From NCBI RefSeq assembly GCF_902652985.1, contig NC_047018.1:26536001-26600000 (forward strand): 64,000 bases of DNA, written 5' to 3'. A program made the position numbers. Source of the stretch: Pecten maximus (taxonomy: Eukaryota). Below are positions 36,001-42,000 of this stretch, piece by piece (the first letter of the stretch is position 1; the number at the start of each line of letters is the position of its first letter).

Positions 36001-39000
36001 ACCATGAATTGACTTGCATCAGCTAAAATGCTATAAATAAACAAAAAAACAAAACAAAAAAAACAACGGGTTATATGATAATTATGAAAAGAAAAAAAGT
36101 GTTCTGTTATATAGACAGTGGGGTGGGGATATATGCCATGCTCCATTCAGAGAGTAAAACATAGGTGTAATGTAATATAGACAGTGGGGTGGGGATATAT
36201 GCCATGCTCCATTCAGAGAGTAAAACATAGGTGTACTGTTATGTAGACAGTGGGGTGGGGATCTTTGTCATGCCCCATTCAGAGAGTAAAACAAAGGTGT
36301 ACTGTTATATAGACAGTGGGGTGGGGATATATGTCATGCTCCATTCAGAGTAAAACATAGGTGTAGTGTTATATAGACAGTGGGGTGGGGATCTTTGTCA
36401 TGCCCCATTCAGAGTTAAACAAAGGTGTTCTGTTATATAGACAGTGGGGTGGGGATCTTTGTCATGCTCCATTCAGAGTTAAACAAAGGTGTTCTGTTAT
36501 ATAGACAGTGGGGTGGGGATATATGTCATGCCCCATTCAGAGTAAAACATAGGTGTACTGTTATATAGACAGTGGGGTGGGGATCTTTGTCATGCTCCAT
36601 TCAGAGAGTAAAACAAAGGTGTACTGTTATATAGACAGTGGGGTGGGGATCTTTGTCATGCTCCATTCAGAGTAAAACAAAGGTGTAGTGTTATATAGAC
36701 AGTGGGGTGGGGATCTTTGTCATGCTCCATTCAGAGTAAAACAAAGGTGTAGTGTTATATAGACAGTGGGGTGGGGATCTTTGTCATGCTCCATTCAGAG
36801 TAAAACAAAAGTGTTCTGTTATAAAGACAGTGGGATGGGGATCTTTGTCATGCTCCATTCAAAGTAAAACAAAGGTGTAGTGTTATATAGACAGTGGGGT
36901 GGGGATCTTTGTCATGCTCCATTCAGAGTAAAACAAAAGTGTTCTGTTATATAGACAGTGGGGTGGGGATCTTTGTCATTCTCCATTCAGAGAGTAAAAC
37001 ATAGGTGTACTGTTATATAGACAGTGGGGTGGGGATCTTTGTCATGCTCCATTCAGAGTAAAACAAAGGTGTACTGTTATATAGACAGTGGGGTGGGGAT
37101 CTTTGTCATGCTCCATTCAGAGAGTAAAACATAGGTGTACTGTTACATAGACAGTGGGGTGGGGATATATGCCATGCTCCATTCAGAGAGTAAAACATAG
37201 GTGTACTGTTACATAGACAGTGGGGTGGGGATATATGCCATGCTCCATTCAGAGTAAAACAAAGGTGTTCTGTTACATAGACAGTGGGGTGGGGATCTTT
37301 GTCATGCTCCATTCAGAGAGTAAAACATAGGTGTACTGTTATATAGACAGTGGGGTGGGGATATATGCCATACCCCATTCAGAGTAAAACATAGGTGTTC
37401 TGTTACATAGACAGTCGGGTGGGGATATATGCCATGCTCCATTCAGAGTAAAACAAAGGTGTAGTGTTATATAGACAGTGGGGTGGGGATCTTTGTCATG
37501 CTCCATTCAGAGTAAAACAAAGGTGTACTGTTATATAGACAGTGGGGTGGGGATCTTTGTCATGCTCCATTCAAAAGTTTTAAGTTCAAGAATGTGCTGC
37601 TCCCTATTATCTAAATTTTTGTTCATACCATAAGCAGTTTGTACAGTTCTTAAATTGGTATTTTCCTCTTCTGGACTTTATACATTTCTATAACACAAAG
37701 TACATGCCCCACATCTCAGTGTCTTTATACTCAATGGTCATGTATTGTCTACCTCTCAGATTAAGTAATACTTATAGCTCTTTTATTGTAATCCCTATAA
37801 GGTCCCCAGCTGATATGATCCACATCTCGCCAAAGACCCAGCTGGATTTCCAGAAGCAATACGATGAGTTTGGGGACAGCTTCGTTGATCCTACCAGTCC
37901 AGAGCAACTAGAGACTGTGTTTGGTAGAATAACTAAGGTAATGTAGACTCCATCGGTCCAGAGCAACTACAGACTGTGTTTGGTAGAATAACTAAGGTAA
38001 TGTAGACACCATGGTCCAGAACAACTAGAGACCGTGTTTAGTAGAATAACTAAGGTAATATAGACACCACTAGTCCAGAACAACTACAGACCGTGTTTGG
38101 TAGAATAACTAAGGTAAACTAGACTCCATTGGTCCAGGACAACTAGAGACTGTGTTTGGTAGAATAACTAAGGTAATGTAGACTCCATGGTCCAGAACAA
38201 CTACAGACTGTGTTTGGTAGAATAACTAAGGTAATGTAGACTCCACTAGTCCAGAACAACTACAGACCGTGTTTGGTAGAATAACTAAGGTAATGTAGAC
38301 TCCATCGGTCCAGAGCAACTACAGACCGTGTTTGGTAGAATAACTAAGGTAATGTAGACTCCATTGGTCCAGAACAACTACAGACCGTGTTTGGTAGAAT
38401 AACTAAGGTAATGTAGACTCCATGGTCCAGAACAACTACAGACCGTGTTTGGTAGAATAACTAAGGTAAACTAGACTCCATTGGTCCAGGACAATTAGAG
38501 ACTGTGTTTGGTAGAATAACTAAGGTAATGTAGACTCCATCGGTCCAGAACAACTAGAGACTGTGTTTGGTAGAATAACTAAGGTAATGTAGACTCCATT
38601 GGTCCAGGACAACTAGAGACTGTGTTTGGTAGAATAACTAAGGTAATGTAGACTCCATGGTCCAGAACAACTACAGACTGTGTTTGGTAGAATAAGTAAG
38701 GTAATGTAGACACCACTAGTCCAGAACAACTAGAGACCGTGTTTGGTAGAATAACTAAGGTAATGTAGACTCCATCGGTCCAGAACAACTACAGACCATG
38801 TTTGGTAGAATAACTAAGGTAATGTAGACTCCATCGGTCCAGAACAACTACAGACCGTGTTTGGTAGAATAACTAAGGTAATGTAGACTCCATTGGTCCA
38901 GAACAACTACAGACTGTGTTTGGTAGAATAACTAAGGTAATGTAGACTCCATCGGTCCAGAACAACTACAGACCGTGTTTGGTAGAATAACTAAGGTAAT

Positions 39001-42000
39001 GTAGACTCCATCGGTCCAGAACAACTACAGACCGTGTTTGGTAGAATAACTAAGGTAATGTAGACTCCATGGTCCAGAACAACTACAGACCGTGTTTGGT
39101 AGAATAACTAAGGTAATGTAGACTCCATCGGTCCAGAACAACTACAGACCGTGTTTGGTAGAATAACTAAAGTAATGTAGACTCCATCGGTCCAGAACAA
39201 CTACAGACCGTGTTTGGTAGAATGATTTGAGGTAATTTAGTTTTAATTACACTGTATCGTGTTAACTTGAATTTTATATCTATATAAACAGTCTATTCAA
39301 ACACTCAATAATCTTCAAGTGTTAAATTATTAGTCACTTTTCAATAATAGAAGAGTAGGGTCCTGGTGGATCTATCAGTGTTCTAATTCGAAAACATATC
39401 TTGAAAGGCAAATTAATTTTTTTTGAGATTTTTTAAATTATTTTTTCCTCAGGTTGAAAATGACATGAGTGATCCTCTGGATATAGCGGAGATAGAGGAG
39501 GCTTACTTTCCTGACGATTCTCCGTACGGATTATTCCGTACTTGCAGGTAGCTTTACAGTTGTATATCTTTAACATTTAAACATTATACTCCAGTGACTG
39601 CCGAGGCCCCATGACAACTTGTTATATATCAAACAATAACCTCATATTAATGGTCAGTCCTGTTCCATTGTATACTATAGTGTACATAGTCAAGTCAGTA
39701 GGAGATCAGGGCTTTTTTTGAGGGCTTTTTGGGGTCGTTATTGGGCCCCATTACTAATTGGAATTATTTCATTTTAAAGCCAAATTCCCCAAATTTGCAG
39801 TTTACTCCTGAAAAACTCTTTCCCAATTCACCAATTTTCTTCCCAAAATGAGACAAAAAGGCCCCATCCCAAACCAGTGAGAAAAAGCCCTGGAGATATT
39901 TTATAGTATCATTTTTGAAGAGTCATTAATTTTAAATGATTCACAACTAAGCCTTCCCTGAACTTTAATACTGAAGTGTTTACATGAAGGGAGGGACTTA
40001 TTTGAGGAAAATATGGTGAATCATATTTAACATTTATTGTCATTAGGGAATATTTGTTTAACATTTCTGGTAATAAATCAGGATCTCCAAGGCATTAGAG
40101 TTTGTTTGTAAATGATAGAATACATGTAAACTGAGTATCAGTCCCATTTTATTTATTAATTTACACATAAGCATCTTTCGAGATCTATAATTTATCTATC
40201 CCTCGTAAAGAGATTAGGAGATAGATGCTATGACCGAAATGAAGAGGGTGTTTCTGTTGCAGATTTTACATGGATGACAGTTTAGTCATTAATGACAAGA
40301 CCACGAAACTAAAGAACTCTACGCTGGACTTCCTAGCCCTGGAGTTACGGTTCTTTGGTGGGACCATTGTTGATGAGATAGACCTTGAGGTTTCTCATGT
40401 CATGTTGGATAAAAGGTAAAAACTCTGTCCTATACATTCATATAGTGGTGGAGAGTAATTCCCCTGTGTAGTTAACACACTCACTAAGGTTTTGTCATCT
40501 TTATTATTTAGTTCAAATAGTACTTGTTGGTGGTTGTAGTGTTACACAAGGACATGTGATGTGATATCAGAGGCTTCCTTTGGTTATACAGTTTAAATTT
40601 CCAGTTGACATAAATATATTCTATAATAAATGATTATTTGAATTATAATTACCAGGGCCCAGTTGTTCCAAAGCTTATTAGCTCAATCACTTGATTAGTG
40701 AAAATATCATTTTTCCTTTAAATTTACTGTGTAGGAAGAGACTAAAAAGTGTTATAGTTTTATGAAGTTTCTACCAGAAATGATTTTATCTGGCTTTTAG
40801 CTTCTTGCAATTAACCTTATCACCTCTTGAACAATTGGGCCGTGGTCATGATACTTAAAAAAATAAATCCTGATTTCGGATTAGGATGATAAAGCCTTAC
40901 AAATAGCCTTGAGTTAGGATGATAGATACAAATGATTATCTGAATTATCTAATCAAGAAGAATTAACTGGCTCTAAATATTTTGATGGTAGTGACCTAAG
41001 TCGGCTGGAGGAAATAAAGGGAATGAGAAGACAAAGGAAAAAGAAGTTTCACATTGTCACCAAAGACTGGATCCGGCAGAGTATGGAGGAAGGAACCCTG
41101 GTATCAGAACGCAGCTTTGAACCATCCTAGTAAAGCAGACTACTCTTATATAGATCTCTTCTAAAACAGGTTCTTCAAACTATCATTATGATATCTAACA
41201 AGCCTCATGTAGGATAGGTTTATTTTGGAAACTGTACTAATGAAGTGAAATGATATGTGATAGTGCCATAAACTCAGGGTGATGTATACATACTAGTCCA
41301 CTCTGTTGTACAATTTTTACTAGAATTCTTCAACAGACATCTTGGACATGGATATCTTGGATGTGGATATTTTGGACATGGCTATCTAGAATAAGAATTA
41401 TCCTTGTATGGAATCAGATTCTTTTTTACAATGTGATACCTAGACAATTCAAATATAAAGATATTCTATCTCTTGTATTGTGTTGATAGTAGTGGAAGAG
41501 GGATATCACTCTTTATGTAGGCAGCAATAGGTAATTTGTATGTTCTTATGATATATTTATACATAATAAATCTGTGCAAAACATAAATCCAATAGTTTTG
41601 ATTTATGCATCCCTTTTTGCGAAACTTATCCGACACTTCTGATGTTCTGTCAAGGTACCTTGTATCTGGTGATCCCTAAGTGTACCGTGGGATATCTACA
41701 GTACACAGTTACCTGTGATACCTCAGTGTACCATGGGATATCTACAGTACACAGTTACCTGTGATACCTCAGTGTACCGTGGGATATATACAGTACACAG
41801 TTATCTGTGATACCTCTGTGTACCGTGGGATATCTACAGTACACGGTTACCTATGATACCTCTGTGTACCGTGGGATATCTACAGTACACAGTTACCTGT
41901 GATACCTCAGTGTACTGTGGGGTATCTACAGTACACAGTTACCTGTGATACCTCAGTGTACTGTGGGGTATCTACAGTACACAGTTACCTATGATACCTC

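What the first reader, a model, noticed from the sequence alone, without database searches (positions are those of the whole stretch)
37894..39237. LIG4 exon end and its 5' splice site amplified about 22 times into the intron
Seen: each 58/59-bp unit is the last ~44 nt of exon 15 plus AAG|GTAATG, so about 22 near-identical donors in exonic context follow the true one. Use of any distal donor adds GTA ATG TAG, an in-frame stop between the two BRCT domains. Inference: either the spliceosome strictly selects the first donor, or array length tunes a truncated/NMD isoform of an essential NHEJ ligase. Tandem duplication of AG|GT sites is also a proposed route to intron gain.
Basis: partly seen in the sequence, partly recalled or inferred. 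Interest (0 to 1): 0.65.

Follow-up and report, generated by a model that had tools for sequence, protein, structure and literature searches.

The report
Scallop LIG4 splice donor repeated in intron
A 59-base minisatellite in a scallop DNA ligase 4 gene copies the end of one exon and its splice donor about 22 times into the next intron; this type of repeat is already known from human and amphioxus genes, where the extra donors are mostly ignored.

Summary
Window 37897-39223 holds 22 full units (58/59 nt) plus one degenerate unit. Each unit is the last 41 nt of coding exon 15 of a DNA ligase 4 gene plus the donor and 17-18 nt of intron. After the authentic donor (37937|37938) come 22 GT sites in the same register, and 17 of them carry the exact 9-mer AAG|GTAATG. 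Reading past the first donor gives K-V-M-stop, just after the XRCC4-binding linker (PF11411) and before BRCT2.

The window is not human. It is Pecten maximus, because 437 of 437 residues of that species' OMA1 protein are encoded here.

This architecture is already described: human F7 IVS7, 6-16, CBS, LMNB2 and PDGF, and the amphioxus "mirages". In those cases only the most upstream donor or donors are used. The Argopecten irradians LIG4 protein has the junction expected from the first donor.

The same window holds two more donor-spanning arrays in the neighbouring OMA1 gene, one with 24 identical donors. The P. maximus OMA1 protein model corresponds to the first donor in both.

Minisatellites make up 40% of the LIG4 span. 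Three of 10 intragenic arrays span a donor, against 0.46 expected (P about 0.009, post hoc).

Verdict: a new member of a known kind and probably silent. Donor usage could not be tested because no RNA data were available.

The parts
20393..41130 (+). DNA ligase 4 gene, with 18 coding exons (2751 nt, 916 codons plus stop), all GT-AG.
   Evidence: A local tblastn with the Argopecten irradians LIG4 protein (P0001) covers all 18 exons. Boundaries and phases were checked by arithmetic only. Pfam hits on single exon frames: DNA_ligase_A_N, _M, _C, BRCT and DNA_ligase_IV.
37802..37937 (+). Coding exon 15 (136 nt). It encodes W(split)[45 protein letters not shown], the linker between the BRCT domains that matches the XRCC4-binding region of solved ligase IV chains.
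   Evidence: PDB chains 3ii6_X, 7lsy_X, 9cq3_F and 1ik9_C ('DNA ligase 4' / 'DNA LIGASE IV') align to residues 2-43 or 10-43 of the exon peptide.
37935..37943 (+). Authentic donor AAG|GTAATG (exon ends at 37937, phase 0).
   Evidence: It matches CAG|GTAAGT at 6 of 9 positions, which equals the mean of the gene's 17 donors (6.2).
37944..37946 (+). In-frame TAG, reached if the first donor is not used (adds Val-Met-stop).
37897..39223 (+). 59-bp minisatellite with 22 full units. Unit 1 is the real exon end plus the intron start. Units 2-22 are copies of it.
39190..39248 (+). Degenerate terminal unit 23, carrying the donor-like GAG|GTAATT at 39232 (7 of 9 consensus matches).
38693..38701 (+). Extra donor-like site TAA|GTAAGG, created by a C-to-G change in unit 14, 5 nt upstream of that unit's regular copy.
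39224..39452 (+). Non-repeated 3' part of intron 15, with the polypyrimidine tract and the acceptor ...ttttttcctcag|.
39453..39547 (+). Coding exon 16 ([31 protein letters not shown]...).
49750..51427 (-). Second donor-spanning minisatellite, in OMA1 intron 2. Units are 68/73 nt: the last 17 nt of OMA1 coding exon 2, the donor ACG|GTAGGT and 51 or 56 nt of intron. There are 24 copies of the donor and the first is the authentic one (exon ends at 51411).
48807..49216 (-). Third, older donor-spanning array, in OMA1 intron 3. The authentic exon 3 end plus donor (exon ends at 49183, CAG|GTATGT) is followed by 7 degenerate copies of 33-60 nt. Three of them keep CAG|GTACA.

Best explanation
This is an exon-intron-boundary minisatellite, the type called a 'mirage' in amphioxus and seen in human F7 intron 7. 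A 59-bp segment straddling the exon 15 donor of the Pecten maximus DNA ligase 4 gene was amplified in place. That lengthened intron 15 from about 222 nt to 1515 nt and left 22 further donor-like sites downstream of the real one.

Most likely the spliceosome uses only the first donor. It is the one that closes the 136-nt exon 15, and in published cases with this architecture the most upstream site wins. The copies would then be silent intron sequence, and the array would be a tolerated by-product of this genome's very high rate of local minisatellite formation, not a regulator.

What is shown: the anatomy, the direction of copying (exon into intron), the local origin, and the presence of two sister cases in the neighbouring gene. 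What is inferred: first-donor use in this species and the absence of a function.
For: Anatomy.

Direction of copying: the exon part of the unit encodes ...[14 protein letters not shown]. This segment aligns in all 11 named LIG4 proteins compared (8 molluscs including Argopecten, Mytilus, Haliotis, Lottia and Octopus, plus one Branchiostoma and one starfish) and lies inside PF11411. The coding sequence is therefore the source.

Local origin: the unit occurs nowhere else in the 64 kb. A self-BLAST gave 13 off-diagonal pairs, and none linked one array to a different array.

First-donor use: the Argopecten irradians LIG4 protein joins ...GRITK to VENDMSD.

Sister cases: the two donor-spanning arrays in OMA1 sit in a gene whose own-species protein model, P0121 [Pecten maximus], is encoded exactly (437 of 437 residues). 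It joins ...VITS-R|VYRQ and ...EAEQ|HIEQ, which are the first donors.

Precedent: PMC1557585 (introduction and discussion read) shows that the F7 pseudo-sites are functional but never compete with the most upstream site, and that LMNB2 and PDGF use only the authentic donor. PMC3087553 and PMC3902484 (passages read) report that amphioxus mirages do not generate aberrant mRNAs.

Genomic background: minisatellites cover 8390 of 20738 bases of the LIG4 span. Random placement of 5 founder units puts at least one on a donor in 23% of trials. Tandem repeats are the most abundant repeat class in another scallop genome, at 11.3% (PMC5700196, passage read).
Against: No transcript data for this species and locus were available, so donor usage is inferred from a sister-species protein model, from a neighbouring gene and from other phyla.

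The copies are as good as the original: 17 of 22 have the identical 9-mer, one extra site (38696) and the last site (39232) look equal or better by consensus count, and predicted local accessibility gives the first donor no advantage (0.024 against 0.004-0.173 for the others). Nothing in the sequence itself therefore forces first-donor choice.

In two of the published cases (6-16 and CBS) the next two sites are also used (PMC1557585).

No P. maximus LIG4 protein appeared in my two protein searches for LIG4, although P. maximus OMA1 did in a third search. I could not find out why, because one search did not complete.

Three of 10 intragenic arrays span a donor against 0.46 expected. That argues against a purely random by-product.
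Confidence: 0.72

Rival explanations
1. Leaky decoys. A fraction of transcripts uses distal donors. Each such transcript carries Val-Met-stop after exon 15 and is either degraded by NMD or yields a ligase without BRCT2. Array length would then set the productive LIG4 dose.
For: The copies have the same 9-mer and the same 41 nt of exonic context. They have equal consensus score and equal predicted accessibility. In 6-16 and CBS the next two pseudo-sites are used constitutively, and the F7 pseudo-sites are functional when the upstream one is destroyed (PMC1557585).
Against: With monomers of 37-100 bp (F7, PDGF, LMNB2) only the authentic site is used (PMC1557585). Amphioxus mirages give normal mRNAs (PMC3087553, PMC3902484). 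The Argopecten LIG4 protein and the P. maximus OMA1 protein show first-donor junctions. No truncated ...GRITKVM protein was among the hits, but this is weak evidence because those hit lists are not transcript surveys.
Confidence: 0.15
2. Donor-spanning arrays are not random in this genome. Either amplification is preferentially seeded at exon-intron junctions, or arrays of U1-binding sites are retained because they help expression. The LIG4 array would then be one instance of a systematic process.
For: Three of 10 intragenic arrays in the two modelled genes contain a complete donor 9-mer, against 0.456 expected under uniform placement, P(>=3)=0.0086. All three start inside the exon (41, 17 and 33 nt upstream of the donor). 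Mirages were suggested to be a general phenomenon in amphioxus (PMC3087553).
Against: The test is post hoc, covers only two genes and is small. Without the flagged array it is 2 of 9 against 0.387, P=0.053. Counting donors and acceptors together gives 0.988 expected, P=0.066. Excluding wholly exonic placements, which selection would remove, would raise the expectation further. No mechanism is known, and nothing in the unit boundaries points to one.
Confidence: 0.2
3. Assembly artefact: the array, or its length, is not in the animal's genome.
For: Tandem arrays can be mis-assembled. PMC3087553 notes an aberrantly assembled mirage in a draft genome.
Against: The units are not identical. The most variable sites include CpG/TpG transitions, and variants recur in higher-order patterns of 176 and 235 nt, as in natural arrays. 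At least ten other arrays with unrelated units lie in the same window. No N is present in the window.
Confidence: 0.03

Closest known systems
Human F7 intron 7 minisatellite (37 bp x 5-9), with the related cases 6-16/IFI6, CBS intron 13, LMNB2 and PDGF intron 4, as listed in PMC1557585
   Same: The first monomer spans the exon-intron boundary, so the authentic donor is followed by identical pseudo-donors in tandem. Unit size is tens of bases and copy number is 5-26. Use of a pseudo-site in F7 mostly gives a premature stop.
   Different: The host gene and phylum differ (a bivalve mollusc, DNA ligase 4). The unit carries far more exon (41 nt against 4 nt in F7). Splicing outcome and length polymorphism were measured for F7 but not here.
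Amphioxus 'mirages' (Adh3, troponin C, globins BflGb6/9, PGBD5), from PMC3087553 and PMC3902484
   Same: These are minisatellite-like tandem duplications of exon-intron boundaries in an invertebrate, recurring in several genes. Interior units are homogenised and edge units are diverged. Here unit 23 is diverged and the interior is 94% alike.
   Different: Those reports are from a cephalochordate, and both 5' and 3' boundaries are involved. Here all three cases are donors. Several listed amphioxus examples have fewer copies (3-6 in BflGb6).
Rogers-type intron gain by tandem duplication of an AG|GT proto-splice site
   Same: A duplicated AG|GT segment is present.
   Different: The intron here has a unique 229-nt 3' part with its own acceptor, so the duplication enlarged an existing intron and did not create one.

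Membership tests
Exon-intron-boundary minisatellite ('mirage' / F7 IVS7 type) | Head-to-tail tandem array with a minisatellite-sized unit | tested here: met
   Period 59, 22.6 copies, 94% matches. 21 pattern matches against 0 in shuffles.
Exon-intron-boundary minisatellite ('mirage' / F7 IVS7 type) | The first monomer spans the boundary, so the authentic donor sequence is reiterated in the intron | tested here: met
   Unit 1 is 37897-37955 and the exon ends at 37937. 17 of 22 downstream copies carry the exact AAG|GTAATG.
Exon-intron-boundary minisatellite ('mirage' / F7 IVS7 type) | The exon part is genuine, conserved coding sequence (copied from exon into intron) | tested here: met
   PF11411 match ending at the exon end. 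The segment aligns in 11 of 11 named LIG4 proteins.
Exon-intron-boundary minisatellite ('mirage' / F7 IVS7 type) | Only the most upstream donor or donors are used in mature mRNA | not testable with these tools
   No RNA data. Indirect only: the Argopecten LIG4 junction K|V, and first-donor junctions in P. maximus OMA1 for the two sister arrays.
Exon-intron-boundary minisatellite ('mirage' / F7 IVS7 type) | Copy number varies between alleles (VNTR) | not testable with these tools
   Only one haplotype is in the window.
Intron gained by tandem duplication of AG|GT (Rogers model) | The intron consists of duplicated sequence and its acceptor comes from the second copy | tested here: not met
   39224-39452 is unique sequence with its own polypyrimidine tract and acceptor.
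Recursive-splicing ratchet points | A juxtaposed acceptor and donor (polypyrimidine tract, then AG|GT) | tested here: not met
   AAG|GTAATG is present in every unit, but the 20 nt before it (GTGTTTGGTAGAATAACTAAG) are purine-rich with no pyrimidine tract. This was judged by eye and not scored.
DNA ligase IV | Ligase N/adenylation/OB domains, then two BRCT domains separated by the XRCC4-binding linker | tested here: met
   Single-exon Pfam hits to PF04675, PF01068, PF04679, PF00533 and PF11411. 917-aa Argopecten LIG4 at 63-99% identity per tblastn match, which includes matches that run into introns. PDB ligase 4 chains match exon 15. BRCT2 was not detected on single exons 16-18 at E<=0.01.

The most novel reading that the evidence does not exclude
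In Pecten maximus, minisatellites are preferentially born on, or retained at, splice donors. Three in two adjacent genes carry 23, 24 and 4 donor copies counting the authentic one, and four unrelated arrays in the window have 22.6-23.8 copies. On this reading, scallops would have a junction-linked amplification process, or selection for reiterated U1 sites. They would also be a natural system of many genes with 20 or more identical competing donors, where array-length alleles measurably shift productive splicing of genes such as LIG4.
Probability: 0.12. Interest if true: 0.6.

Novelty: new member of a known kind. Interest (0 to 1): 0.3.

Why it matters
As a single locus it matters little. It adds a mollusc example, with an unusually long exon-derived part and 22 extra donors, to a class described in human genes and amphioxus.

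Its practical value is as a caution for annotation, because gene predictors may pick a wrong donor or truncate LIG4 here. It is also a natural test of how a spliceosome outside the vertebrates chooses among identical donors.

If the excess of donor-spanning arrays seen in this window (3 of 10 against 0.46 expected) holds genome-wide, scallops would offer many such natural experiments. The origin of these arrays, unexplained since the amphioxus reports, would then become testable.

Tried and rejected
1. RNA structure as the reason for first-donor choice. Local unpaired probability of the 9-mer is 0.024 for the authentic donor, against 0.004-0.173 for the other 22. There is no advantage.

2. Donor strength. 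The authentic site and the copies score the same, 6 of 9 consensus matches.

3. Decay of the copies under selection. Six of 198 cells vary in the donor 9-mer, against 50 of 1320 over the whole unit. There is no difference.

4. A transposon or dispersed-repeat origin. The unit is absent elsewhere in the window, and no array shares sequence or flanks with another.

5. Hidden exon-derived sequence in the other arrays. In blastn-short of 18 arrays against all 27 modelled exons, only the LIG4 59-mer and the OMA1 73-mer hit. The degenerate OMA1 60-mer was seen only by eye and in the self-BLAST.

6. A known RNA family in 35500-40000. None was found at gathering score.

7. Intron gain by duplication. 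Rejected because the 3' end of the intron is unique sequence.

8. Recursive splicing at AG|GT. No pyrimidine tract was seen by eye, so I rejected this reading without scoring it.

9. Listing the members of the Argopecten LIG4 cluster, to look for a P. maximus LIG4 or a truncated isoform.

10. One paper search failed on a syntax rule and was resent in corrected form.

11. Pfam scan of 78 of the 173 selected reading frames outside LIG4, taken from 238 frames of at least 55 aa. Only a thioredoxin-like exon and the M48 peptidase matched.
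Full report
**What is there.** Tandem Repeats Finder reports one array at 37897-39223 with period 59, 22.6 copies, 94% matches, no indels and score 2276. It also finds higher-order periods of 176 and 235 nt. Splitting at the unit start gives 22 full units (17 of 59 nt, 5 of 58 nt) and a degenerate 23rd unit from 39190. A 50-nt unit pattern with up to 3 mismatches matches 21 times, always inside the array, and never in 100 shuffles.

**The gene and the organism.** The array lies in a DNA ligase 4 gene on the + strand.
- I searched exon by exon. 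The exon 15 peptide alone found one protein, 'DNA ligase 4-like [Argopecten irradians]' (917 aa, 87% identity over the exon).
- A local tblastn of that protein against the window outlined 18 coding exons from 20393 to 41130.
- All introns are GT-AG, the phases are consistent, and the lengths sum to 2751 nt.
- I did not build or search a joined spliced sequence. That step was left out and only lengths and phases were checked.
- The neighbouring gene on the minus strand encodes, residue for residue (437 of 437), the protein 'metalloendopeptidase OMA1, mitochondrial-like [Pecten maximus]'. The window is therefore king scallop DNA.
- I do not take it for human. It contains no N.

**Anatomy of the unit.**
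- Exon 15 is 37802-37937 and its donor is AAG|GTAATG.
- Each unit is the last 41 nt of the exon (GTCCAG...ACTAAG) plus the donor and 17-18 nt of intron.
- Of the 22 in-register GT sites after the real donor, 17 carry the exact 9-mer. Three differ only at +5/+6 (units 3, 4, 10), one at -1 (unit 22), and the terminal degenerate unit has GAG|GTAATT.
- A C-to-G change in unit 14 adds a further site, TAA|GTAAGG, at 38696.
- Reading past the first donor gives ...GRITK-V-M-stop.
- The exon 15 frame matches Pfam PF11411 (DNA_ligase_IV) over profile positions 3-34 of 34, ending exactly at the exon end.
- The exon peptide also aligns to solved DNA ligase 4 chains 3ii6_X, 7lsy_X, 9cq3_F and 1ik9_C.
- In the Argopecten protein the best BRCT match is at 662-735, with a second stretch reported, and PF11411 is at 756-789.

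**Direction and origin.**
- The exon-derived part encodes ...[14 protein letters not shown]. This segment aligns in all 11 named LIG4 proteins I compared: 8 molluscs, one amphioxus and one starfish. The coding sequence is therefore ancestral and was copied into the intron.
- The unit occurs nowhere else in the window, and no array shares sequence with another. The array arose in place.
- The last 229 nt of intron 15 (39224-39452) are unique and carry the polypyrimidine tract and acceptor. With one unit the intron would be about 222 nt instead of 1515. The array enlarged an existing intron, so this is not an intron gained by AG|GT duplication.
- The most variable sites include CpG/TpG positions, and variants recur in higher-order patterns. 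This looks natural and not like an assembly artefact.

**Does anything in the sequence favour the first donor?** Nothing I could compute does.
- Consensus matches are 6 of 9 for the authentic site and for the copies. The mean of the gene's 17 donors is 6.2.
- The predicted probability that the 9-mer is unpaired is 0.024 for the first site and 0.004-0.173 for the others.
- The donor positions in the copies vary no more and no less than the rest of the unit (6 of 198 cells against 50 of 1320).

**Surroundings.**
- Minisatellites cover 8390 of the 20738 bases of the LIG4 span, which is 46% of its intronic bases.
- One array starts 21 nt after the exon 11 donor, and another ends 29 nt before the exon 14 acceptor.
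- The convergent OMA1 gene holds two further donor-spanning arrays.
- In OMA1 intron 2 (49750-51427, minus strand), a 68/73-nt unit consists of the last 17 nt of coding exon 2, the donor ACG|GTAGGT and intron sequence. All 24 of 24 copies keep the identical donor, and the first is the authentic one. Reading past that donor gives CGG TAG, again an immediate stop (seen directly in the sequence).
- In OMA1 intron 3 (48807-49216), the authentic exon 3 end and donor are followed by seven degenerate copies of 33-60 nt, three of which keep CAG|GTACA.
- The P. maximus OMA1 protein joins ...VITS-R|VYRQ and ...EAEQ|HIEQ. These are the first donors in both cases, and the Ylistrum balloti protein has the same junctions.

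**Chance.**
- Placing the founder units of five LIG4 arrays at random on the collapsed gene puts at least one on a whole donor 9-mer in 23% of trials. The LIG4 case alone is not surprising.
- Over both genes, 3 of 10 arrays span a donor against 0.456 expected, P(>=3)=0.0086.
- Leaving out the flagged array gives 2 of 9 against 0.387, P=0.053.
- Counting donors and acceptors together gives 0.988 expected, P=0.066.
- This is post hoc and small, but it suggests an excess worth a genome-wide test.

**What is known.**
- The architecture is described. PMC1557585 (abstract, introduction and discussion read) studies the human F7 intron 7 minisatellite, whose first 37-bp monomer spans the exon 7 boundary. 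The pseudo-sites are functional but never compete with the most upstream site.
- The same paper lists 6-16 (25 pseudo-sites, the first two used in addition to the authentic site), CBS, LMNB2 and PDGF. In the last two only the authentic site is used.
- PMC3087553 (passages read) describes the same type of repeat in amphioxus globin genes, cites the earlier Adh3 report that named them 'mirages', notes normal splicing, and links them to the Rogers intron-gain model.
- PMC3902484 (passage read) adds troponin C and PGBD5.
- My searches listed no paper describing such arrays in molluscs, judging by titles and abstract starts only. That covers only the held library. Supplementary files were not consulted.

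**Most likely mechanism.** The array is probably a tolerated by-product of frequent local minisatellite formation. Splicing most likely uses the first donor, the one that closes the 136-nt exon 15. Published cases show 5'-to-3' preference for the most upstream site, and the Argopecten LIG4 and P. maximus OMA1 proteins show first-donor junctions. I give this about 0.72. Leaky use of distal donors with NMD or truncation remains possible (about 0.15), because the copies are as good as the original and two human cases use the next two sites. An assembly artefact is unlikely (about 0.03). A junction-linked origin or retention of such arrays (about 0.2) is compatible with either splicing outcome.

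**What stayed unchecked.**
- Donor usage was not tested, because no RNA data were available.
- Array polymorphism is unknown.
- The orthologous introns in other scallops could not be examined, because no eukaryotic genome collection was at hand.
- The P. maximus LIG4 annotation was not seen. No P. maximus LIG4 appeared, and the cluster listing was unavailable.

**Verdict.** It is a new member of a known kind, of modest interest in itself. The cluster of three such arrays in one window is the most useful lead.

Noticed in passing
window 49750-51427 (minus strand): OMA1 intron 2 holds a 68/73-nt minisatellite whose unit is the last 17 nt of coding exon 2 plus the donor ACG|GTAGGT. There are 24 identical donors in tandem. 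The P. maximus OMA1 protein corresponds to the first. Reading past it gives an immediate TAG.
   Followed up: yes
window 48807-49216 (minus strand): OMA1 intron 3 starts with seven degenerate copies (33-60 nt) of the exon 3 end and its donor. This is an older, decayed array of the same type. Each copy also carries AAG|GTCAGT-like sites.
   Followed up: partly
window 36095-37573, 37897-39223, 41669-42765, 49750-51427, 28085-28633: Five arrays with unrelated units of 64, 59, 46, 73 and 22 nt have nearly the same copy number (22.9, 22.6, 23.8, 23.6, 25.0), and two more have about 28. Seven of the eight arrays with more than 10 copies lie between 22.6 and 28.6. No explanation was found.
   Followed up: no
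window 20393-41130: Minisatellites make up 40% of the LIG4 span and account for most of the intron length differences. One array (30450-34372, about 100 copies) ends 29 nt before the exon 14 acceptor, and another (28085-28633) begins 21 nt after the exon 11 donor.
   Followed up: partly
window 37897-39223 and 49750-51427: Among the most variable sites in both arrays are CpG to TpG/CpA transitions (ACCGTG/ACTGTG and CATCG/CATTG in the first, CTCGTA/CTCATA in the second). This would be expected for methylated gene bodies.
   Followed up: no
protein searches: No Pecten maximus LIG4 protein appeared among the hits, although the P. maximus OMA1 protein from the neighbouring gene is in the same database. 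The LIG4 model of this species may be clustered with the Argopecten entry, missing or mis-modelled.
   Followed up: no
window 9571-10113 (minus strand): A 181-aa open frame matches Thioredoxin_8 (E 6e-20). This is probably an exon of a nucleoredoxin-like gene upstream of LIG4.
   Followed up: no
window 14500-17800: There are unusually long open frames on both strands (up to 306 aa) with no Pfam match at E<=0.001.
   Followed up: no
window 54521-54651 and 54740-54870: A perfect 131-nt direct repeat, with copies 219 nt apart start to start, lies upstream of OMA1.
   Followed up: no
window 53519|53518 and 45007|45006 (minus strand): OMA1 coding exons 1 and 8 use the same donor 9-mer, AAG|GTAATG, as LIG4 exon 15. 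This is probably coincidence.
   Followed up: no
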